From positions 48,819-112,818 of the IMG/VR virus record IMGVR_UViG_3300048999_000056: a stretch of 64,000 nucleotides of DNA. One strand, written 5' to 3'. Source of the stretch: a virus. Positions within the stretch are counted from its first letter, which is position 1. Each line of letters opens with the position of its first letter. A model generated the notes under the pieces. It was not told the DNA's origin and made no database searches. It saw only the letters and a list, made by a program, of their open reading frames with translations. Of this stretch, positions 3,336-39,094 are shown one piece after another. The position numbers were made by a program, and so were the translations under genes.

Positions 3336-4483
3336 GCGAGAAACCATGGGCGATCATCTGCCGGTTTGGCGGCGTCGGCGACAACCTGATTGTATCCTCC
3401 GTGCTGCCGCTGCTGGCGCGGAAATACAATGTCGAAGTTATCGCGCAGGCGCCGTTTCACGTCGTCTTCGAGAACAACCCGCACGTGGCGCGGTTGACAG
3501 TGCGCCAGCGCTCCGACCTGCCGAGCGATGCCATGCCCTGGCAACGCTGGTTTGACGACAGAGCGATCGGCGCCGACATGCTGGTCAACCTCTCGCATTC
3601 CTGCGAGTCCATGCTGTGCCTGTTTGAAAGCCAGACGCAGTATCGTTGGCCGGATGCATGGCGACGCCAGCACTGCGGGCGCAACTACTTGGAGCACACG
3701 CACGACATCGTCGGCGTGCCGCACGAGTTCGATCCGCGCTTCTATCCGACACGCGAAGAATGGCAACGTGCGGAGGAGGTTCGCCGGACAGTCGGCGGAC
3801 GCTATGTTGCGTGGTGCCTGTCCGGCACGCGCTACGACAAAATCTTCCCGTCAGCCCCGATCGCGATAGCGCGCATTATCAACGAACTGCAAATGCCTGT
3901 CGTGATGCTGGGTGCTCCTGGCAAGGATTCCGATCTCGGCAAGAGCATTCAGGAGCACGTCAAGAAGCACAACGGCACCGATCGCGGGCTGCATCTTGCG
4001 GTGTCTGCCGACGCGACGAAGACGGCGCCCGAGCTGCGCGATGCCTTGGGCCTGCGCGAGAACGTCGAGGCTTGGCCGATCAGGCGCGTGCTGACACAGA
4101 CCATGCTGGCTGATCTGGTGATATCGCCTGATACCGGTCCGGCGTGGGCAGTGGCCATGTCAGCAATGCCGAAGATCATACTGTTGAGCCACGCCTCGCC
4201 GGAGAACATCACGAAGCACTGGCGCAACACGGTGACGCTGCATGCTGATCAGCAGCGTGTGTCGTGCTGGCCGTGCCACAAGTTGCACGAAGGACCGCAC
4301 ACGTGCCGGCCGAACGCCGACAACAACGGCGCCTCGTGCATCAGTGACATCAGCGTGGAGACGATCGTGTCAACCGCTGATGCGTTGTTAACCCAAGAAA
4401 GGAAACCCGACCAATGGCAGGTATCTCAGCTTATCACGAAAAGCAGCTGCTGGACTTCGGACTGGGTGGTGCAGGCGCCGTAA
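3332..4483 (+). CDS. Glycosyltransferase family 9 (heptosyltransferase-like)
   Basis: RFGGVGDNL N-terminal motif and ADLVISPDTGP.W.A motif; C-terminal CWPC. Confidence 0.85.
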   Translation: MSEKPWAIICRFGGVGDNLIVSSVLPLLARKYNVEVIAQAPFHVVFENNPHVARLTVRQRSDLPSDAMPWQRWFDDRAIGADMLVNLSHSCESMLCLFESQTQYRWPDAWRRQHCGRNYLEHTHDIVGVPHEFDPRFYPTREEWQRAEEVRRTVGGRYVAWCLSGTRYDKIFPSAPIAIARIINELQMPVVMLGAPGKDSDLGKSIQEHVKKHNGTDRGLHLAVSADATKTAPELRDALGLRENVEAWPIRRVLTQTMLADLVISPDTGPAWAVAMSAMPKIILLSHASPENITKHWRNTVTLHADQQRVSCWPCHKLHEGPHTCRPNADNNGASCISDISVETIVSTADALLTQERKPDQWQVSQLITKSSCWTSDWVVQAP

Positions 4484-4818
4484 GCCAGCCCGCATCAGGC
4501 TCGCACGGTGTCGGACTGTCGCTTGGTGCGCCGACCTCGATTTCTGCATCCGAGATCGCAACCGGTTCCGGTTGGACACGTCAGCCGATCGGCTTCGCGG
4601 CGGCGGCGTCACCGGCCGGTTCGGCGTCGAACAACACCGCAGCGACATTCGGACCAGGGCTGACCGGTGCGACGTTCTCCGGTCTGCAAATCTTCGATGA
4701 TACGCGGTCCGGCACCGGCAACATGCTCTGGTATGGCAACCTCGCCACGCCGCGCACGCTGGGCGTCGGCGACAGCTTGGTGATCGCAACCGGTGCGTTG
4801 ACTATTACCCTCGCCTGA
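4414..4818 (+). CDS. Small virion/tail-fibre-associated structural protein
   Basis: SAY.E..LLD...EI..G.GW.RQ...SN....F...GN.L..G.L...GD....G.L.I.L pattern common in phage fibre modules. Confidence 0.65.
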   Translation: MAGISAYHEKQLLDFGLGGAGAVSQPASGSHGVGLSLGAPTSISASEIATGSGWTRQPIGFAAAASPAGSASNNTAATFGPGLTGATFSGLQIFDDTRSGTGNMLWYGNLATPRTLGVGDSLVIATGALTITLA

Positions 4819-4878
4819 TCTGTCGGGTGCAGTCCAACGGTCTGCACCCCACGGACTTCCTAAAGAGCGGCTTCGACA

Positions 4879-7800
4879 ATGGCGTGGTCCTTCGTCGGTG
4901 CCGGCGCTTTAGCGTCCGTCACCACCACAGCGATATCGGTAGCAGAGCCCGCTGGTGTACAAGCCGGCGATCTTCTTGTTGCGCTCATATCGCATCGTGC
5001 CGCGTCGGGTGCCGCTTCGGTGGTGCTGCCGACTGGTTGGACTCTCGTTACTGAGCAGAAGGTCGGCAACACCACCGCCGCCAGCACGTTAGGCATCGGC
5101 AACGGCGTCATGGCCTACCGGGTCGCGACCGGAGCCGGTGGGCCGTGGAGCTTCACGGTTCCGACCGCGAACGTTGCGCTCGGTCGCATTCTTGTCTACC
5201 GCGGTCAGGACAAGCTCGCGTCGCCACTGTGTATGACACGCAGCACGACGACGGCAACCGCCACGACGAGCATCAGCGTTACTGGCCTAACAACGCCGAA
5301 CGCCAACTGTCTGATCATTCACGGTCTATGCGGCGCACAGAATGGCGCGATGTCGGCATTCGACGCCGCGACCGATCCAACGACTGCTAGCGGCACGGGC
5401 GGTCAAACAGGCGCTCCAACTGCCGGGACATGGCTGGAGCGAACCGATGACGCTACCGCGAATGGTTCCGATTGTAGTCTGGCAATTGCAGACGCGGTTC
5501 GGGCCACGTCGGGCGCCACAGGCAATTTCACCGCGACGGCGGCGCTGGGTTGTGGCTACGCCTCGCTCGTCGGCGTGTTCAAACTCGACGTTGCAATCCC
5601 AGCCGGCCAACGGCTGGTCACGCATTACATCATCGGAACGGGAACCGGCAGCTTCACGCCGCCGTCCACCGTCAACGCGATCGTCGAAGTATGGGGCGCG
5701 GGCGCCACTGGAAACACCGCGAGCGGCGTGGGCGGTAACGGTGCTGGTTGGTCACGGGATAGTAGCTACGCGCTAACAGCGGCAACGCCGGTCAACTTTT
5801 CGCTCGGTGCTCCCGGCGCGACCTCTGCGGCGGCCGGTGGCGATACTTGGTGGGCAACATCCGGCACGCTGATAGCGAACGGCGGCGGGTCCGCTACCGC
5901 GCGGATCGGCGACGTGACGTTTGTCGGTGGCGTGGCGAGCACCAACTCTGCCACCGGTAACACCGGGGGCGGTGGCGCAGCCGGTCCGTATGGACCTGGG
6001 CGAGCCTCTGGCAGTGCTGGCAGTGGTGGCGGAACGGGTGGCGGTGGTAACGGCGGCGGCACCGACTCAACAGCTTCCGCAACGGCAGCTGGCACCGCTG
6101 GCGGCAATGGTTTCGCTGGAACGGGCGGCGCTGCTGGCGTTGCAAATGGTAATGGTTCGCCGGGCGGTCCGGGCGCGGGCGGTGGCGGTGGCGGTAACAC
6201 GACAGGTCAAGGCGCTCGCGGTGGTGATGATTGGAGCAACGGCGGCGGCGGTGCGGGTGGCACAGGCAGCCTCGCCAATCATCCTACAACGGCGGTCGGC
6301 GGCACGCCGGGTGCTGGCGGTGCGGCGGCAAATGCGGCACTTGGGCGCGGCGGTTACAGCCTCGTCAAACTCAGCTATGTTGGGACCGACGATGACAGCC
6401 TGACAGTTGTCGGCTCGCTGTCGAACATCGTCTTCGCGCGACCGGGTGCAGCTCATATTGCCGGCACCGGCTCGATATCGGCCAATGCAACAGTCGTCAG
6501 TGGCGGTCCGACTACTTGGCAAGGGACTGCAACATTTGCTGGCGTAGCGTCGGTTAGTGCTGTCACTGCCTACGTCAAACCGCAACAATGGGACATCGGC
6601 AACTACTATCATCCCAACGTCACGCTGTCGGGCACGGGCGGAAACTTTACCGCGCTGCAGACGGGGAGCAGCGGCAACCGTGCATCGGTGGTTGCGACTG
6701 AGTTTTTCAATACCGGCAAATACTACTGGGAACTGCAGATCGATTCCACTGGCGGCGGTCAGTATGTCGGACTGGCGCGTGCAGCGTTCGATCCCAACGG
6801 CTTCGATTCCGCCTTGTATGCGACTGAGGTTACGTGGTGGACCTTTACCGCTGACTCATCCGGTCATATAGTTGCTGCTAACGTCGAGATCAGCGCCGGG
6901 GCACCGTTCTACACGACTGGCGATCGTGTCCAGTTTGCCTGGGATGCTACCAATCATCTGATATGGCTTAGAGTCAACAATGGCTCTTGGGCGAACGGCG
7001 GTGATCCGGCAGCCGGGACCAACGGTTACGATATCTCGTCCGTGACGGGACCTCTCGCTCCGGCGATCTCGCTGGGCGGCACGAATGATCAGATATCAAC
7101 CAAGTTCGATCGTGCCTCGTGGTCCGGCACGGCGCCAGCCGGTTTCGCTCAATTCGACCCTGTCATTCTACAGGGAACTGCAACGCTAGCCGGCACGGGC
7201 TCGCGGACCTTTAACGCCACGCACACACCGGCAGGCACAGCAACAATTGGCGGTGCCGGTTTGCTTAGCGTCTCTGCGCGGATCATTGACCGGATCGACC
7301 CTGTCACGCTGGCAGGTATCGGCTCAATTACTGCAAACGCTACGCATACGCCGGCAGGCACAGCCGTTTTCGCCGGTCTAGGTTCGTTAACTGTTGACGC
7401 AACTGTTGTTCTCGGCACTGTCACGTGGCAGGGCTCGGCAACGTTTGCAGGCGTCGGCACGCTCAGTGTCAATGCGACGCACACGCCAGCCGGACAGGCG
7501 ACGATCAACGGCGCCGGTTCGCTTGCTGTCACTGCGACGCTGATCGATGCTATAGACGCTCTTACGCTGCCAGGTGCCGGCTCTCTCAGCGTCAACGCCA
7601 CGCATACGCCGGCTGCGGCTGCGACGTTTGCCGGTATCGGCTCGGTCACGCTCAATGCGACTTTGACTGCTCCGGTCACGGCGAATATCAACGGCACCGG
7701 ATCGGTCACTGCCAATGCTACGCACACGCCGGCTGCGACGGCATCGCTCAACGGTGTCGGATCGATAGCAGCAACCGCGACGGTCATCGCTCGTGCCTCA

Positions 7801-11981: not shown

Positions 11982-12437
11982 ATGGCAATTCTCAACGCAA
12001 CAGCCGGCATATCAGGTGTCGGCAGGCTGACGGCAATCGCTGCGGCAAAGGAAACAGCGACGGCGGTCCTGTCGGGCAATGCCAGCGTATTTGTCAACGC
12101 TGTCAATGCGCTGCATCTGGCGAGCCCGCCAAACTATCCGATTCCGCCGCAGGCGGATGACGCTGCGCCTGTCTTTCTTGTCGATCCGGCAACCGGTGCC
12201 GCAGTCGGCGCAACAGGACCGTACGCAAACGCACTGCCGGTGACGCCGGCCGATGTCGGCTCACTGCCGGCAACCACGCGTGCGTTGTGGATCGGCGGTG
12301 CCGGTAACGTGACGGTTGACACTCTTGGCGGACAGACAGTCACGCTGACCGCAGTGGCAGCAGGAACATTGCTGCCACTGCAAGTCTCGCGTGTCCGTGC
12401 GGCGACAACGGCGACGTTGGTCGTCGCGTTGTGGTGA
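11982..12437 (+). CDS. Head spike base protein, RcGTA Rcc01079-like, with N-terminal extension
   Basis: VTP.D...L...TRALWIG..G.V.V....G..VT...V..G.LLP..V.RV......VALW. Confidence 0.7.
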   Translation: MAILNATAGISGVGRLTAIAAAKETATAVLSGNASVFVNAVNALHLASPPNYPIPPQADDAAPVFLVDPATGAAVGATGPYANALPVTPADVGSLPATTRALWIGGAGNVTVDTLGGQTVTLTAVAAGTLLPLQVSRVRAATTATLVVALW

Positions 12438-12438
12438 T

Positions 12439-13445
12439 GCCTGCGCTGACGGGTCGCACCCTGCCGCGCCTAACCGTGTCGGGCGATGCCTGCCAAGCCC
12501 TGACAATCCACGTCTTGCGTTGCCGTGCCGTGCCGGGCCTGCCGGGTCAAGCCGGGACCTTCCGAGCGTTGCGATGCCGCGTCTGCCCCGCCATGACATG
12601 CCTTGCCGTTGCGAGCGTAGCCTTGCCTGCGCTGTCTTGCCGTGACGGACCTAGCCGCGCTCTGCCCTGTCGAGCCTGCCATGCCATGCCCTGACGATCT
12701 ATGCCATCCCGAGCCGAGCCTAGCCAGCCACGTCAAGCCGTGCCTTGACACGTCTTTCCAAGCCTAGCCGAGCCGAGTCTGCGTTGACCTGCCAATCGAT
12801 ACCTCGCCGTGCCAAGCCGCGTCTGCCCTGCCTCGGCCTGCCGAACGATACCATGCCCTGCAGACCCATGCCTGCGATGCCGGAACGTGCCCTGCGCTCT
12901 CGTGCCACGTCACCACGTACCCTGCCTGCGCCGCCTCAACGCGTCCTACCGAGCCAAGCCGAGACAAGCCTGCGATGCGGCGCCTAGCCTCGCCTCGACG
13001 GATGTCGCCTCGCCTAGCCTGCGTTGCCACAACCAGCCCCCCGAGATCAGGCGAACCCAGCGTGTCCAAGCCTGCCACGCGCCGCCCGGACTGCCCTTGC
13101 CTATCGGTGTCGCCCCGAGCCGGCCGCGCCCTGCCTCGCCCAGTCTCGTCCTGCCAGGACGTGCCTTGCCTGCCCCGTCGTGACGTGCCCAGCGCGGCGT
13201 AGCCGAGCCTGCCATGCCATGACCGGTCTAGTCCCGCCTAACCATAGCGGGCCGCGCCTGCCCCGCCATCCGGGCGTCGCCTTGCCGAGCCTTGTCGAAC
13301 CATGCCTGCGACGCCTTGCCACGGCGTTACGCGTCTAGCCGCACCTTGCCGAGCCTGCGACGCGATGCCTTGCCAAGCCACGTCGCAACCCGCCAAGCCT
13401 GCGTTGCCATCCCTCGAATTGCCCAGCCAACGCTAACCCTGCCCT
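12439..13445 (-). repeat. Array 1: 21 units of (NN-GGC)7-10 + AGGC; candidate guide-RNA array of the adjacent RAMP protein
   Basis: + strand GCCTGC-type boundaries at 12439,12488,12537,12581,12625,12674,12723,12777,12821,12870,12924,12968,13017,13070,13119,13168,13207,13256,13304,13353,13397; 18 of 20 intervals equal 5n+4; interior is GCC-NN pentamers. Confidence 0.9.
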
Positions 13446-13458
13446 GTACACAAGGCGA

Positions 13459-13474
13459 GGCGGCCGAAGCCGCC
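13459..13474 (-). promoter_or_regulatory. C(UUCG)G tetraloop hairpin in leader of array 1
   Basis: - strand GGCGGC-TTCG-GCCGCC, 13 nt upstream of first array pentamer. Confidence 0.7.
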
Positions 13475-13499
13475 CCGTTAGTGTTAGATATTATGACTG

Positions 13500-14021
13500 C
13501 TACTGTCTGCGGCGCTTTCGCCCTGCCTTGCGGTCGGGGCCTTTGCGTGCTGGCGACTTCACCGTGCCACCTTCCAGCTGATCCTGCCGGCGCCGCTCCA
13601 GTTCGGCAATCCGCTGGCCTTCATCGAACAGGCGCGACATTTCGGTCAACCGCTGATACTTGATATGGAAGCGGTTGAAGTCATCTAGCGCGTCCTTCAA
13701 CATGACGCGCCGCAAGTCACGATCGGGCAGAATGCGATCAAGCGGACGATAACCGCCGCCCGCGTGACGATCGATACTCAACGAGATCATGGTGCGCTGC
13801 CCGGTATCGTCAACAACATGAATGGCAATCAGGCGGCGTATCTGGTCGAGCCGATAGCGGTATCCTGCCTTGGCGTCTTCCCATTCGAGTTCTTCATGCA
13901 GTGCCGAGCTGGGATGCGTAGCAGCCCAGTCGTGCACCACCTTGACGTAGAGATTGCCATCGGGATCGAGCCGGCGCAGCGCCTCCAGTTCCTGCTGGAT
14001 GCGCGCCGTGGATTCAAGCAT
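13500..14021 (-). CDS. Conserved phage protein associated with RAMP/array locus
   Basis: GGAGG RBS before ATG 14021; ELEAL....G.L....V..WA...P.S.LH..LEW.D..A...YRL.Q.R.LI motif; basic C-terminal tail. Confidence 0.75.
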   Translation of the reverse strand: MLESTARIQQELEALRRLDPDGNLYVKVVHDWAATHPSSALHEELEWEDAKAGYRYRLDQIRRLIAIHVVDDTGQRTMISLSIDRHAGGGYRPLDRILPDRDLRRVMLKDALDDFNRFHIKYQRLTEMSRLFDEGQRIAELERRRQDQLEGGTVKSPARKGPDRKAGRKRRRQ

Positions 14022-14262
14022 TGTTCGGCCTCCTGGTTGAACGCGCGGCCCAGCCGATAGCGTTCGCCAGATCGCCTTTTTCCATTGCCAGCTCATACTT
14101 GTTGAGTGCGAGCATGTGTTGCGTGAACTTGCGCTCGCGCCGTGCCCATGTGCCAATACGCCGCTTCCTCCGAGGCGGCGTTTCCTGCAATGCTTTCTCC
14201 TTCAGCGCCTCTTGTGCGAGGCGCTGCCCTTCACGGGTTATGTTTTTCAACCGGCTAAGCAT
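14014..14262 (-). CDS. Small basic helical protein, translationally coupled in RAMP operon
   Basis: 82 aa; 8-nt overlaps with both neighbouring genes. Confidence 0.6.
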   Translation of the reverse strand: MLSRLKNITREGQRLAQEALKEKALQETPPRRKRRIGTWARRERKFTQHMLALNKYELAMEKGDLANAIGWAARSTRRPNNA

Positions 14263-15265
14263 TGCTGTTGACTACGTCCCACAAGCCCCAGTCCAGACCG
14301 TTGGAGTTCGGCGAGGAGGGCCGCCCCTCGCCGACGCCGACCTGCATACCGGCAATCGCCATCAGGTTGACCACGTCGGTTGCCGAGAACTGCCGCGCGT
14401 CCCAGCGGACGGTCACGGCGGCGTTCCACTTTTCCCACATAGGCCGGTGGCGGATATCGGCAACGCCTGATGCGTTGCGGGCTGGCGCCTCGTGCAGCCG
14501 TGGCGTGCCGTTGATCTTGACGAGCGGCTGCCCATCCTGATCGAGTCCGTCCGGCACGATGAACAACGACAGCTTGGCGCGTGTCATCGTGAAGCCGGCA
14601 AGGCGGCACGCGTCAATCATCGCGTTGCGGAAAGCCGGCGCCGGAATGCCGTGCCATCCGTCACGCGCGATATGCTGCGCCAGACGGTAGATTTCTTCGA
14701 AGTCCTTCGGCTCGCGACGGCGGCGTGACTTTTCGCCCTGCGAACCCGCCTTCTGCCGCTCCACCATCATGTTGACGGCTTTCTGGCTGAATTTGTGTTG
14801 CACGTAAGGCGTAGAGCCTCTGATGTAGACGATGCCGCGATCGAACTGCGGCGGTTGAATGACGACGCGCGTCACCTTGCCGCTCAACACGCCAACCGTG
14901 CCTTGCTCCATGGTGCTGTCGAGCGTTTCGATCGGGATCGGCGAGGCGGGTATCCTGCCGAAATTGTCGGTGTTGCGCATTGACGGCCCGGCTACTGCAC
15001 CCTTGCCGTTCTTGCCCTTGCCGTTCCGACCGATCGTCGCCTCACGTTCCGCCAGCAGGTCCGCAACCGGATTGCCGCCAGCGTGCGCCGCCTCGAATGC
15101 GGCTTTCTGCTGTCTCTCGTCGCGTGACATAGGTCCGCGCTTGCCGGGCTCGCGTGCCCAAACGGCCGGCTCAACGTCTTCGACTGCGGGAGCTGTCCCC
15201 CTCTGCGCCAGCTTCTTGGCCTTCAATGCCTTCTTGGCGCTTTTCTTGTCCTTCAACGTCGTCAT
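14255..15265 (-). CDS. Stand-alone Cas7/RAMP-superfamily-like protein
   Basis: IVYIRGSTPYVQH (first RRM strand), GIPAPAFRNAMIDAC (IPxSSxKGxxR-like), C-terminal G-loop GVGEGRP....GLDWGLWDV; RBS GAGGGA before ATG 15265. Confidence 0.75.
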   Translation of the reverse strand: MTTLKDKKSAKKALKAKKLAQRGTAPAVEDVEPAVWAREPGKRGPMSRDERQQKAAFEAAHAGGNPVADLLAEREATIGRNGKGKNGKGAVAGPSMRNTDNFGRIPASPIPIETLDSTMEQGTVGVLSGKVTRVVIQPPQFDRGIVYIRGSTPYVQHKFSQKAVNMMVERQKAGSQGEKSRRRREPKDFEEIYRLAQHIARDGWHGIPAPAFRNAMIDACRLAGFTMTRAKLSLFIVPDGLDQDGQPLVKINGTPRLHEAPARNASGVADIRHRPMWEKWNAAVTVRWDARQFSATDVVNLMAIAGMQVGVGEGRPSSPNSNGLDWGLWDVVNSNA

Positions 15266-15319
15266 GTCGTTTTCCCTCATGTATGCGATGGGCGCGGCTT
15301 TTATTGCCCGCCATCCTAT

Positions 15320-15345
15320 ATATACAAAACGCCTATTCGTGTTGA
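15320..15345 (-). promoter_or_regulatory. Phage promoter motif TCAACACG-N12-GTATAT upstream of RAMP operon
   Basis: Same bipartite motif recurs at 18073-18099 and 22926-22953 upstream of - strand genes. Confidence 0.65.
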
Positions 15346-20940: not shown

Positions 20941-21261
20941 TCAGAAATTTCCGTTGATTACGTCGCTGGATTGTAAGCGCCGCCATCCAACCGTATCACA
21001 ATAATATATACGATCCTGATCGAGCGCCACAATGTCTGCCATCGACATTGAGTAACTATTGAAGTTTCTCGGGTGCGCCGTGTTGAAGATCAGATACAGC
21101 CATTTCAACGCGTCGTCATCGGTGCTGCTATGCTCCTCTGCGATAATACCGTTGAACGTGTCGCGGTAGTCGCACCGATCGATCTTGCGGCGTGGATTGA
21201 ACGGGCGGAACGCGACCTCGCATATGCGCCCGATGCGAACCTGATATAGCGTGAACTTCAT
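20941..21261 (-). CDS. YodL-like domain protein
   Basis: LYQ...L..LY..FN..HP..F..YSMSM.DIV....YYCD.VGW. Confidence 0.75.
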   Translation of the reverse strand: MKFTLYQVRIGRICEVAFRPFNPRRKIDRCDYRDTFNGIIAEEHSSTDDDALKWLYLIFNTAHPRNFNSYSMSMADIVALDQDRIYYCDTVGWRRLQSSDVINGNF

Positions 21262-22887: not shown

Positions 22888-22925
22888 GGTCTGTTTCCTT
22901 TCCGTGATTCATTCGGCTATCAGAT

Positions 22926-22953
22926 ATATACAAAAGCCGCTAGTCCGTGTTGA
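22926..22953 (-). promoter_or_regulatory. Phage promoter motif TCAACACG-N14-GTATAT
   Basis: Recurrent bipartite motif. Confidence 0.6.
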
Positions 22954-26325: not shown

Positions 26326-27762
26326 TCACTTGCCGTGCTCGGCTTCGTCTGTCTCCTCGGTCTGCTCTTCTGCGGGTTGTTTTCCGGTGACACGGTCCAG
26401 CTCACTTTCTGTTGCCTGATCCATATATACGCTCGATAGGTGGAATTGCCCAGTGACGTAGGATTGCGAGATAAGCACGCGGAACTTATCCTCCTCGTCA
26501 CGTGCGGCATCAACGAGGATACGCGCGAGGCCCATCTTGCGTTCCTCGTCGGTGCGGTTGAACGTCAGTACGGTATCAGCTGTGCCGACCTTGCTCCAAT
26601 CCTCCGACACGCCTTTCGAGCCGAATAGCTTGGCGCCCTCGGTCGCTCGATTGCCCTGCGTCGGCGCGCACAACGCCATGTCACGCCGTACGCACAGACC
26701 GCGCAATTGCTGATACAGCCGCCCGGTGTCGATCCGCAGATTGTCGGCATTGATCGACATGAGATCGGGATAATCGATGATCAGCAGGTCGGGCACGAAG
26801 TTCTCTTCGCGCGCAAGCATGTCGAGATAGGCATCGAGCTGCGGAACTGTCAACGCTCCTGTCGGCCATCCTTTGATCAACAGGCGCGGACGCAAGCCGA
26901 ATGACTGCAGCCGGCGGACGATCTCCTGCTTGCTGGCGGTCATCAGGCCCATCGCCTGATACTCGTGCAATGTGATCATGCCGGACAGCCTGCCGGTCTG
27001 CGGATCACGCGACAGCTTGGGCAACTGCACGGTCTGTGCCTCGCGCTTGGTCCAGGCATTGAACGCTTGTACATACCGGCGCTTCGTCAGTTTCTCCGAG
27101 TTCTCCAATGTCATGTGCAACGTCGTATGCCCATCGCGGAAATTGGCCTTGCCGAGATTGACGCACCACCAACTTTTGCCTGCCTTCTTGGGAGCAATGA
27201 ACAACGTAAACGTGCCGCGCTCCGGGCGGATGCCGCGTATGTCCAGTTCTTCCACACCGGACGAGAACCGCTCGCCGCTGGTCTGTTCAACGAAACTGAG
27301 ATCGGTATCGTGCAGCCACGTGCCGCGCGTCATGCGCGAACGGAACGCCGGTTGCCCCCAAATCAGCTCGTCAGCCTTTGTCTCGTCACCGGCCTGCAAT
27401 ACCTCCAACGCGTTCTCCAGCGCATTCATCTTGGATTGCCGCCGCATCCAGTCGTCGAGGCCGCCAATGACGAAATTTGGATCGAGATCGGCCTGCACGC
27501 GTTGCGTCTCGTCAATTATGGACGCCATGAACTTGCCTTCGCTGCGCTTCAGCTCGTTCTCCATCACGTCGCGGATATGCCCCTGCGGTGCGTGCCTGTA
27601 ATCAACGATGAACTTGATTGCGGCTTCCGCTATGCGTTGAAAGGCTCTGGTGCTGAATATCTCCGGCTCCAAGATCGATGCGAGCATGCTTGCGTGCTCG
27701 TTGTTCCAGATCAACAGGGTGATAACGTTTTCCTCGGCAGTGCCTTGCAGTTGATTAGCCAT
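26326..27762 (-). CDS. DnaB-like replicative helicase
   Basis: Walker A APKKAGKS, TLEN, IIDYPD, TQ.NR; start MANQLQG at 27762. Confidence 0.85.
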   Translation of the reverse strand: MANQLQGTAEENVITLLIWNNEHASMLASILEPEIFSTRAFQRIAEAAIKFIVDYRHAPQGHIRDVMENELKRSEGKFMASIIDETQRVQADLDPNFVIGGLDDWMRRQSKMNALENALEVLQAGDETKADELIWGQPAFRSRMTRGTWLHDTDLSFVEQTSGERFSSGVEELDIRGIRPERGTFTLFIAPKKAGKSWWCVNLGKANFRDGHTTLHMTLENSEKLTKRRYVQAFNAWTKREAQTVQLPKLSRDPQTGRLSGMITLHEYQAMGLMTASKQEIVRRLQSFGLRPRLLIKGWPTGALTVPQLDAYLDMLAREENFVPDLLIIDYPDLMSINADNLRIDTGRLYQQLRGLCVRRDMALCAPTQGNRATEGAKLFGSKGVSEDWSKVGTADTVLTFNRTDEERKMGLARILVDAARDEEDKFRVLISQSYVTGQFHLSSVYMDQATESELDRVTGKQPAEEQTEETDEAEHGK

Positions 27763-34841: not shown

Positions 34842-34888
34842 CTTGGTTCTGCCTTTGAATTGGTAGCTTCCCTACCCCCTATATACGA

Positions 34889-38397: not shown

Positions 38398-38452
38398 AGA
38401 CACCCTCCTGATTTGGTAGCCTCTCAGAAGGGATATACGAAACGCCGAAAAA

Positions 38453-39081
38453 GCCTGCGCTGCCGCTGCCCGCCCTGCCTTGCCGAACCGGGTCATGCCA
38501 AGCCAGCCCTGCCGGTCCGAGTGCTGCCCTGGCTAGCGTAGACCTGCCACGCCGGCCATGCCCTGCCTTGCCTTCCCGGACGTGCCGAGCGTGGCCTGCC
38601 ATGCCGAGCGTTGACCTATCTTGCCGCCCTGGCCGTTCCGAGCCAAGCCTGCCGATCCGCGTCGATCCGCGCCAAACCTAGCCGCGCCTGCCACGTCTCG
38701 CCACGGCGGGCGGGTCGATGCCATCCCGCGCCATGCCCGCCATGTCAAGCCTTTACGTGCCCTGCCTAGCCGATACGAGCGGTGCCTGCGTTGCCGAACG
38801 TTTGCATGCCCCGTCTAGCCAATACAGGTCGCGCCTGCGTTGCCAAATCGCACCCCGTCTAGCCGACACAAGCCCCGCCTGCGATACCGAGCCATACGCA
38901 GACTGGCCTAGCCGTGCCCTGACGAGCCTGCCCCGATCAGACCTCGTCGGTCCATGCCTAGCCGAGCGCAGCCTGCGTTGACGATCCGCGTCTTGCCCGG
39001 TCAACCCGTGCCATGCCTAGACCACCACGCCTGCCAAGCGTTGCCGATACGAGCGCTTCCTTGCCGGGCCGAGCCGCGCCT
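38453..39081 (-). repeat. Array 2: 13 units with same GGC-NN/AGGC grammar as array 1 (orphan)
   Basis: Boundaries at 38453,38502,38551,38594,38647,38686,38735,38784,38833,38877,38926,38971,39029 plus terminal GCCT 39078; lengths 49,49,43,53,39,49,49,49,44,49,45,58,49. Confidence 0.9.
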
Positions 39082-39094
39082 GATTCCTATATAC

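What the first reader, a model, noticed from the sequence alone, without database searches (positions are those of the whole stretch)
12439..15345. Candidate phage RNA-guided system: lone Cas7/RAMP-like gene + two accessory genes + GGC-NN pentamer array
Seen: one - strand unit runs promoter motif (15320-15345) > RAMP-like gene (15265-14255) > 82-aa gene > 173-aa gene > UUCG leader hairpin > 1-kb patterned non-coding array. There is no cas1/2/3/5/6/8/10 and no repeat-spacer CRISPR anywhere in the window. Established: Cas7-family RAMPs polymerise along guide RNAs with a fixed nucleotide step per subunit. Inference: each protomer grips one constant GGC and displays the variable NN, so every 39-54-nt unit is a separate guide reading a gapped, non-contiguous target. 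With no nuclease evident, it probably acts by binding/silencing, e.g. against competing phages or host genes. From memory, this resembles the recently reported phage 'VIPR' systems (GGY/NN RNAs); I cannot verify that here, so novelty must be checked.
Basis: partly seen in the sequence, partly recalled or inferred. Interest (0 to 1): 0.97.

Follow-up and report, generated by a model that had tools for sequence, protein, structure and literature searches.

The report
Soil phage VIPR guide-RNA system
This is a real example of the VIPR systems first described in 2026 (a lone Cas7-like protein, a small DNA-binding partner and arrays of five-letter-repeat guide RNAs) in a 113-kb soil phage, so the class is known; this phage carries about 79 guides in five arrays, and one guide exactly spells a conserved protein motif of a widespread mobile-element gene.

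Summary
The class, however, is already published as VIPR (bioRxiv 10.64898/2026.04.26.720920, .720927 and 2026.10.15.759431).

- **Protein.** The 336-aa product has a Cas7/Csm3 fold (Z about 11). Its family profile hits one solved protein significantly, the SUSP1 Vipr protein (E 5e-5).
- **Partner genes.** The 173-aa gene is the conserved partner (vap): it follows vipr in 100 of 131 related loci and has a weakly supported winged-helix-like fold. The 82-aa gene is not conserved.
- **Array.** It holds 21 runs of 6-10 NN-GG-Y pentamers, each run 5n+4 nt long and joined by a one-base slip (GGC-A-GGC). This matches the paper's 'staggered array'. The same grammar dominates in 97 of 98 related loci with enough junctions.
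- **Co-occurrence.** 118 of 131 homologue loci carry such an array.

The complete phage genome holds five arrays (79 runs of at least 6 pentamers, about 4.3 kb). Each array follows a GTATATA motif.

Under the published 1-nt-skip rule, guide A21, which lies outside the window, matched at least 120 metagenome contigs exactly. The 80 hits fetched all lie on the motif LVDEATGYQ(K/N) of P63C-domain genes, with the wobble bases free. Targets of the finding's own array remain unknown.

This scan has noted VIPR-type loci in at least 258 other genomes.

The parts
15319..15325 (-). GTATATA promoter-like box upstream of vipr, in the gap after the preceding gene's stop at 15333
   Evidence: 14 copies in the 113-kb genome; 5 lie directly upstream of vipr or of arrays A, B, C and E. 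Not called by the sigma-70 scan. Function is inferred.
14255..15265 (-). vipr, a Cas7-like RAMP of 336 aa. The core is residues about 135-336; residues 1-134 are a Lys/Ala-rich, low-confidence N-terminal extension.
   Evidence: There are 1472 homologues, mostly 205-260 aa. The profile hits PDB 36pp_D 'SUSP1 Vipr protein' at E 5.2e-5. AF2 core pLDDT is mostly above 90. VIA-align Z is 10-11.3 to Csm3/Cas7 chains. phrog_4652.
14014..14262 (-). 82-aa basic ORF between vipr and vap, overlapping both neighbours by 8 nt (ATGCTTAG at the vipr junction, ATGCTTGA at the vap junction)
   Evidence: No Pfam or PHROG family. Absent from all 131 related loci. One homologue in 5.8 billion proteins (71% identity). 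Probably a lineage-specific insertion; role unknown.
13500..14021 (-). vap, the conserved Vipr-accessory gene (173 aa): winged-helix-like domain, long C-terminal helix and basic tail
   Evidence: a homologue lies directly after vipr in most of the 100 of 131 loci that carry one. phrog_15946. AF2 pLDDT 91. The best Foldseek rows are all forkhead or winged-helix DNA-binding domains but weak (E 0.08-0.6).
13457..13476 (-). 8-bp GC hairpin with a UUCG loop between the vap stop and the array
   Evidence: No U-tract follows, so it is not a canonical terminator. Its role (attenuator, processing or stability element) is inferred.
12440..13446 (-). Array D: staggered vrRNA array, 21 runs of 6-10 NN-GG-Y pentamers, each run 5n+4 nt, junction about CGC-A-GGC
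   Evidence: The same grammar holds across the Vipr clade. No self-target in the genome beyond shuffled controls.
38452..39087 (-). Array E: second, orphan vrRNA array with the same grammar (11 runs of at least 6 pentamers), 24 kb from vipr. Includes guide E07 at 38690-38738.
   Evidence: The 18 NN bases of E07 are identical to those of a unit in the array of a 52%-identity Vipr relative (L039), while five of the nine scaffolds differ.
39088..39094 (-). GTATATA promoter-like box directly upstream of array E

Best explanation
The locus is a VIPR (Viral Interference Programmable Repeat) system of a complete 113-kb soil phage.

Proposed working:
- A GTATATA-type promoter drives vipr, a lineage-specific 82-aa gene, vap and, past a UUCG hairpin, a 1-kb staggered array. 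The four other arrays have their own GTATATA boxes.
- The array transcript is cut, or read, into units of 6-10 pentamers.
- One Vipr protomer binds each pentamer, buries the GGY and presents the NN pair.
- The filament binds double-stranded DNA whose sequence reads NN-x-NN-x (the 1-nt skip) and blocks transcription. The winged-helix-like Vap assists.
- Because the skipped base can fall on the codon wobble position, a guide can read a conserved protein motif across very divergent genes. One guide of this phage (A21, array A) does this for P63C-domain genes that sit on mobile elements.

Shown here: the fold, the homology, the array grammar, the co-occurrence, and one exact, codon-phased target family.

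Inferred from the published SUSP1 work: RNA processing, filament formation, DNA binding and silencing.
For: - RAMP fold: the top 50 structural matches are all Cas7-family chains, Z 9.4-11.3 over residues 138-335. Foldseek E is about 3e-4.
- The only significant solved-sequence hit of the family profile is 'SUSP1 Vipr protein' (E 5.2e-5), aligned over the thumb and G-loop.
- Residues that contact the GGY in SUSP1 align to H157 (H17), R274 (R138), E313 (D177) and R315 (R179). R274, E313 and R315 are invariant in alignment A1.
- 118 of 131 homologue loci carry a same-strand 5-nt array next to the gene.
- A vap homologue is present in 100 of 131 loci.
- The staggered 5n+4 grammar dominates in 97 of 98 loci; 769 of 905 junctions are -1 slips. 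This fits the legend of fig. S18 of the discovery paper.
- The record is a virus record with CheckV completeness 100.
- It has a single vipr and no Cas1. The window has no CRISPR-type tandem array.
- The 1-nt-skip pattern of guide A21 gave at least 120 exact metagenome hits, where about 1-2 would be expected by my rough estimate of that collection's size.
- The 80 fetched hits all lie antisense and in codon phase on LVDEATGYQ(K/N) of PF10546/phrog_2384 proteins. Those proteins have a median pairwise identity of 40%, and the wobble bases vary freely at the site.
- Guide E07 keeps all 18 NN bases in a 52%-identity relative while five of its nine scaffolds differ.
Against: - No expression or binding data exist for this locus.
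- The sequence link to the characterised Vipr is short (47 residues) and modest. W178 of SUSP1 aligns to G314.
- Only about 40-67% of the pentamers in most units are canonical GGY.
- The paper confirmed the hammerhead-interspersed and single-vrRNA architectures by sRNA-seq, but not staggered arrays.
- For the finding's own array D no convincing target was found. Three exact scans gave nothing, and three gave counts near chance.
- Of ten guide scans in public collections, only one gave a clear target.
- No convergence of several guides on one element was seen, unlike SUSP1.
Confidence: 0.9

Rival explanations
1. The Vipr-vrRNA complex of this clade acts on RNA rather than on DNA, binding or masking mRNA as its closest structural relatives (Csm3/Cmr4 of type III CRISPR) do.
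For: The closest solved folds are RNA-targeting type III and type VII Cas7 proteins. The one clear target (A21) and the two leads (D07, and D03 in L147) are all antisense to the coding strand, so the vrRNA would be complementary to the mRNA.
Against: The characterised VIPR binds double-stranded DNA, silences from either strand, and forms an R-loop triplex. Three antisense cases are too few to show a strand bias. The Vap partner looks DNA-binding.
Confidence: 0.07
2. The four orphan arrays (A, B, C, E), or part of them, are not guides for the phage's own offence. They are decoy or redirecting RNAs aimed at rival phages' Vipr proteins, as published for satellite and phage 'solo vrRNAs'.
For: Solo vrRNAs that redirect or antagonise foreign VIPR systems are described in 10.64898/2026.10.15.759431. 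The four arrays lie away from vipr, each with its own promoter-like box.
Against: This phage has its own vipr and the same unit grammar in all five arrays. None of the guides matches the vipr, vap or array regions of 131 relatives beyond shuffled controls.
Confidence: 0.08
3. The arrays are partly decayed relics and most units no longer work as guides.
For: Many pentamers depart from GGY. Most tested guides have no identifiable target.
Against: Register is kept over 4.3 kb with a strict 5n+4 grammar. In A21 the four non-canonical pentamers still carry NN pairs that match the target. E07 keeps its NN pairs across divergent phages. The paper notes frequent internal degeneracy in working vrRNAs.
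Confidence: 0.05
4. The pentamer tracts are not RNA genes at all but structural or protein-binding DNA (iterons, packaging or recombination sites) that merely neighbour a RAMP-like gene.
For: No transcript evidence is available for this locus.
Against: The tracts sit on the same strand as vipr in almost all of the 118 loci that have them, and the NN positions are hypervariable. A unit matches a foreign coding motif in the published gapped code. Homologous systems yield RNAs that co-purify with Vipr.
Confidence: 0.01

Closest known systems
VIPR systems with staggered vrRNA arrays (bioRxiv 10.64898/2026.04.26.720920, fig. S18; 667 representative systems, types I-VII)
   Same: A lone Vipr RAMP, one vap gene, a viral genome and GGY/NN pentamers. 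Units follow one another with a one-base overlap or slip and no separate tail.
   Different: The type number could not be assigned, because the paper's tree and data tables are not held. This phage has five arrays with 79 runs, an extra 82-aa gene, and a 134-aa basic N-terminal extension on Vipr. According to the paper's text, staggered arrays were not confirmed by sRNA-seq.
Type II VIPR of Escherichia phage SUSP1 (Vipr structure PDB 36pp; vap1; about 100-nt vrRNAs)
   Same: Homologous Vipr core with conserved GGY-contact residues. A 1-nt-skip, codon-phased target logic. No nuclease in the locus.
   Different: SUSP1 vrRNAs have 9-16 repeats plus a conserved pseudoknot tail; here there are 6-10 repeats and no tail. 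SUSP1 has 4 vrRNAs that converge on one satellite; here there are about 79 units with no convergence seen. W178 aligns to G314. Sequence similarity is detectable only by profile.
Cas7 backbone subunits of type III and type VII CRISPR-Cas (Csm3, Cmr4, Cas7-11 domains)
   Same: RRM core, thumb and G-loop fold, Z 10-11. One protomer per fixed RNA step.
   Different: No repeat-spacer array in the window and no Cas1 in the genome; other cas families were not searched. The step is 5 nt with 2 read bases instead of 6 nt with 5. The genome is viral.
Phage-borne solo or orphan vrRNAs (bioRxiv 10.64898/2026.10.15.759431)
   Same: vrRNA genes lying away from any vipr gene, each presumably with its own promoter.
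   Different: The published solo vrRNAs are 1-2 per element and sit in vipr-null phages or satellites. Here four multi-unit arrays (4 to 34 runs) coexist with a resident vipr.

Membership tests
VIPR system | Vipr protein with a RAMP fold (RRM core, thumb, glycine-rich loop) | tested here: met
   AF2 core pLDDT is mostly above 90. VIA-align Z is 9.4-11.3 to 50 Cas7-family entries over residues 138-335. An invariant G-x-G-E-G-R loop lies at residues 310-315.
VIPR system | Sequence relationship to a characterised Vipr protein | tested here: met
   The family profile A1 against all PDB sequences gave one significant hit, 36pp_D 'SUSP1 Vipr protein', E 5.2e-5 over 47 residues. A single-sequence search gave only E 1.5. 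The link is real but short.
VIPR system | Neighbouring tandem YNNGG (GGY/NN) repeats, at least four units, with hypervariable NN | tested here: met
   21 runs in array D and 724 pentamers genome-wide. Positions 3-5 are G 82%, G 72% and Y 89%. All 16 dinucleotides occur at the NN positions.
VIPR system | Minimal locus with a vap gene, no CRISPR array and no cas operon | tested here: met
   vap is conserved in 100 of 131 loci. No Cas1 in the genome and no CRISPR-like tandem array in the window. Other cas families were not searched individually.
VIPR system | Co-occurrence of protein and array across homologues | tested here: met
   118 of 131 loci, almost all on the same strand. This also holds in cultured Cyanophage Cy-LDV1 and Mycobacterium phage Donkeykong.
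VIPR system | Targets obey the 1-nt-skip (xNN) rule | tested here: inconclusive
   Met for one guide of array A: at least 120 exact hits, and the 80 fetched all lie in one codon phase on one motif. Not shown for any guide of the finding's own array D.
VIPR system | vrRNAs are expressed, processed and co-purify with Vipr; vipr-dependent repression of a matching target | not testable with these tools
   Needs sRNA-seq, pull-down and reporter assays.
VIPR type I-VII assignment | Position in the published Vipr phylogeny together with the vap class | not testable with these tools
   The paper's supplementary tables and tree are not held. Only the 'staggered array' architecture and a winged-helix-like vap can be stated.
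CRISPR-Cas (class 1) | Repeat-spacer array plus an adaptation module (cas1/cas2) and further effector subunits | tested here: not met
   Only one RAMP gene in the genome.

The most novel reading that the evidence does not exclude
This phage's 79 units form a broad panel in which single guides read the first two bases of each codon of invariant protein motifs. One RNA would then silence a whole divergent gene family on rival mobile elements or in hosts. A21 against the LVDEATGYQ(K/N) motif of P63C/phrog_2384 genes would be the first case for a staggered-array VIPR. The codon-phase and escape-proofing idea itself is already in print for one SUSP1 guide (10.64898/2026.10.15.759431). The new points would be the breadth (about 40% identity across targets), the target family, and proof that tail-less staggered units work.
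Probability: 0.3. Interest if true: 0.5.

Novelty: new member of a known kind. Interest (0 to 1): 0.38.

Why it matters
The class is known, so the locus does not open a new field. It is still a useful specimen for four reasons.

- **Complete genome.** It is a complete genome carrying the staggered, tail-less array architecture, which the discovery paper describes but did not confirm by RNA sequencing.
- **Large repertoire.** It holds one of the larger guide repertoires: five arrays, each behind its own promoter-like box.
- **A testable target.** One guide pairs with a concrete target, the P63C-domain motif. A single reporter experiment could test both unit processing and the 1-nt-skip rule in this clade.
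- **Annotation.** The array of Mycobacterium phage Donkeykong is annotated as a protein-coding gene. That matters for annotating widely used phage collections.

Tried and rejected
- **Self-targeting.** Hits of 71 guides in the phage's own genome equal those of shuffled guides and of the other skip rules. The best are 7-pentamer guides with 1-2 mismatches.
- **Targets in the 131 vipr-homologue loci (1.68 Mb).** No excess over shuffles.
- **Exact 1-nt-skip scans with no hit.** D12, D15 and D20 in viral contigs gave 0 hits, and A25 in metagenomes gave 0.
- **D18.** 32 viral hits, close to the roughly 28 I expected by chance from my size estimate of that collection. They are mostly AT-rich genomes and not in codon phase.
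- **D16.** One AT-rich phage lineage, in sense orientation; uninformative.
- **D07.**
  - It matches the C-terminal motif ALSQSLRVL of a 479-aa ORF with a terminase-large-subunit-like sequence (my reading, not searched against a family library). The ORF belongs to one phage lineage; the match is antisense and in phase.
  - The count is at chance level.
  - No other guide hits those contigs. It is kept only as a lead.
- **D03.** Two hits, one antisense and in phase in a 251-aa ORF, the other out of phase. Lead only.
- **Other guides on the 80 P63C loci.** No excess.
- **A21 in bacterial genomes.** In 401 genomes of one phylum, 1 hit with at most 1 mismatch and 0 in the reversed control. The target is rare in those chromosomes.
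- **Codon-composition test of guide orientation.** Inconclusive.
Full report
**1. What is there**

On the - strand the window carries, in order:
- a GTATATA box (15325-15319);
- a 336-aa gene (15265-14255);
- an 82-aa ORF (14262-14014);
- a 173-aa gene (14021-13500);
- an 8-bp hairpin with a UUCG loop (13476-13457);
- a 1-kb tract without credible ORFs (13446-12440).

The three ORFs overlap start to stop, which suggests an operon.

The tract has a strong 5-nt period. Base autocorrelation at lag 5 is 0.43-0.52 against about 0.26 for other lags and for the neighbouring coding sequence. A phase-tracking segmentation shows runs of NN-GG-Y pentamers. Each run ends with a 4-nt element, usually AGGC, so a unit is 5n+4 nt long and the phase slips by one base. 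A second pass kept 21 runs of 6-10 pentamers in this array. Over all the phage's arrays, position 3 is G in 82% of pentamers, position 4 is G in 72% and position 5 is C or T in 89%. Positions 1-2 use all 16 dinucleotides.

**2. The protein**

- The 336-aa product has no Pfam family and matches only phrog_4652, of unknown function.
- It has 1472 homologues, mostly 205-260 aa. They align to residues about 135-336, so residues 1-134 are a variable Lys/Ala-rich extension.
- A profile of 27 homologues has one significant hit among all PDB sequences: chain 36pp_D, 'SUSP1 Vipr protein'. E is 5.2e-5, over the thumb and the glycine-rich loop.
- The AlphaFold model (core pLDDT mostly above 90) matches only Cas7-family chains: Csm3, Cmr4, type VII Cas7 and Cas7-11 domains. 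Foldseek E is about 3e-4. Z is 9.4-11.3 over residues 138-335.
- The SUSP1 residues that the cryo-EM paper reports as holding the GGY bases are H17, R138, D177 and R179. They align to H157, R274, E313 and R315; the last three are invariant in this family. W178 aligns to G314, which is a real difference.

**3. The accessory genes**

- *The 173-aa gene.* It has a homologue in 100 of 131 related loci, directly after the vipr homologue in most of them. It folds with high confidence (pLDDT 91). Its best structural matches are uniformly forkhead or winged-helix DNA-binding domains, but they are weak (E 0.08-0.6). This fits the paper's statement that the vap genes of several types encode winged-helix-like or HTH-like DNA binders.
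- *The 82-aa ORF.* It is absent from all 131 loci. It has a single homologue in the large protein collection (71% identity). I treat it as a lineage-specific insertion of unknown role.

**4. Co-occurrence and grammar in relatives**

- Of 131 loci fetched with the Vipr profile (80 viral contigs, 51 genome contigs), 118 carry a 5-nt-periodic GGY tract. It is almost always on the same strand, just downstream of vap or just upstream of vipr.
- In those arrays 769 of 905 junctions between in-phase runs are -1 slips.
- Unit lengths peak at 44, 49, 54, 59, 64 and 69 nt.
- The junction consensus is GGC-A-GGC.
- The -1 slip dominates in 97 of the 98 loci with at least three junctions.

This matches the legend of the discovery paper's fig. 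S18, 'staggered vrRNA arrays', in which successive vrRNAs overlap by 1 nt. The paper says the other two alternative architectures were confirmed by sRNA-seq, so the staggered one was not.

**5. The genome**

The window is part of a single-contig virus record of 112,818 bp with CheckV completeness 100, from soil metagenomes. It has one vipr but five arrays, listed in genome coordinates:

| Array | Genome coordinates | Strand | Runs of at least 6 pentamers |
|---|---|---|---|
| A | 3520-5450 | + | 34 |
| B | 28335-27800 | - | 9 |
| C | 30095-29880 | - | 4 |
| D (the finding) | 62265-61258 | - | 21 |
| E (window 39087-38452) | 87905-87270 | - | 11 |

That is 79 runs and about 4.3 kb in all. GTATATA occurs 14 times in this 60% G+C genome. 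Five of those copies sit directly upstream of vipr or of arrays A, B, C and E. Array D has no box of its own and is presumably read through from the vipr operon. I found no Cas1 in the genome and no CRISPR-type tandem array in the window.

**6. What is known**

The system was published in 2026 as VIPR:
- a Vipr RAMP plus vrRNAs of alternating GGY/NN;
- one protomer per repeat;
- NN pairs read double-stranded DNA while skipping every third base;
- transcriptional silencing of rival phages and satellites;
- seven types and 667 representative systems, mostly viral or proviral;
- orphan 'solo' vrRNAs.

This scan has also noted VIPR-type loci in at least 258 other genomes.

**7. Targets**

I turned 71 units (7-12 pentamers) into 1-nt-skip patterns.
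- They have no matches in the phage itself beyond shuffled controls.
- They have none in the 131 related loci.

Exact scans of public collections were limited to ten guides.

By my rough estimate of that collection's size, one or two would be expected.
- The 80 fetched hits all lie antisense, in one codon phase, on the peptide LVDEATGYQ(K/N). The ten skipped bases fall on wobble positions and vary freely.
- The three proteins tested carry the P63C domain (PF10546, E 1e-23 to 1e-32). They match phrog_2384, of unknown function, over their full length (E about 1e-115 to 1e-123). They are in neither PADLOC nor NCBIfam.
- The 80 encoded proteins have a median pairwise identity of 40%.
- The four non-canonical pentamers of A21 still carry matching NN pairs.
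- The phage has no P63C homologue.
- In four inspected loci the neighbours are IS transposases, a resolvase and a RecD2-like helicase. That is a mobile-element context rather than an obvious phage one.
- In 401 bacterial genomes of one phylum the site occurs once.

*Array D.* For the finding's own array the scans gave nothing or chance-level counts. Two weak leads remain: D07 on the C-terminal motif of a terminase-like ORF, and D03 on a 251-aa ORF.

*E07.* An independent sign that NN strings are under selection comes from unit E07 (window 38738-38690). All 18 of its NN bases are identical to a unit in the array of a relative whose Vipr is only 52% identical, while five of the nine scaffolds differ.

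**8. Reading**

I am confident (0.9) that this is a VIPR system of the staggered-array kind. How it works is inferred from the SUSP1 experiments, not shown here.

The A21 result supports the 1-nt-skip, codon-phased logic for this clade. It names one plausible natural target family. It does not show silencing, and it does not show that the whole repertoire is a working panel. A later check of a similar 'panel' claim elsewhere in this scan did not hold in full, so I keep that reading at 0.3.

Rival readings are RNA targeting, decoy arrays, decayed arrays and non-RNA DNA repeats. They are listed with the tests that would exclude them.

**9. Verdict**

This is a new member of a known kind. It is notable for its repertoire size, its five separately promoted arrays, the N-terminal arm on Vipr, and one concrete target that makes the unverified staggered architecture directly testable.

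Noticed in passing
genome coordinates 3520-5450 (+), 28335-27800 (-) and 30095-29880 (-); all lie before the window's start (the window begins at genome 48819): Three more NN-GG-Y arrays (34, 9 and 4 runs of at least 6 pentamers) with the same 5n+4 grammar. Each follows a GTATATA box. The largest begins just after a gene whose end resembles a terminase large subunit; I did not verify that identity.
   Followed up: partly
window 38690-38738 (-), and L039:11512-11556 (+): Guide E07 shares all 18 NN bases with a unit in the array of a 104-kb viral contig whose Vipr is 52% identical, while five of the nine scaffolds differ. The shared target is unknown. The antisense reading spells T-S-T-G-G-(I/M)-(I/M)-A-(I/M).
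   Followed up: partly
L303:1944-2330 (Mycobacterium phage Donkeykong, NC_051648.1 36870-37256): The feature annotated as CDS gp48 'hypothetical protein' coincides with a clean NN-GGC pentamer array directly upstream of the Vipr homologue gp49, so it is probably a vrRNA array called as a gene by mistake. 27 Mycobacterium and 5 Gordonia phage records carry this Vipr homologue.
   Followed up: partly
L302:3110-3330 and 3920-4080 (Cyanophage Cy-LDV1, BK059895.1): A cultured cyanophage carries a Vipr homologue (g34, 53% identity) flanked by two short GGC pentamer arrays, close to the cI-like repressor and the excisionase.
   Followed up: partly
window 15319-15325, 21005-21011, 22925-22931, 26424-26430, 34880-34886, 39088-39094, 54005 (-), and 56128, 57630, 61663 (+): GTATATA boxes, often preceded by a T-run and followed by 'GATGG/GGC', recur 14 times in the genome. 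They look like a phage-specific promoter class. The sigma-70 consensus scan does not call the copy at 15325.
   Followed up: partly
L133:11926-13365 (-), match at 12026-12051: Guide D07 of the finding's array matches, antisense and in codon phase, the motif ALSQSLRVL near the C-terminus of a 479-aa ORF that looks like a terminase large subunit. The ORF belongs to an unrelated 55% G+C phage seen in three contigs. The number of hits is what chance predicts, so this is only a lead.
   Followed up: yes
window 14863-15265 (-), residues 1-134 of the Vipr protein: A Lys/Ala-rich N-terminal arm with low model confidence is present only in the closest relatives (310-336 aa). Most homologues are 205-260 aa. 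It may be an extra DNA-binding tail.
   Followed up: no
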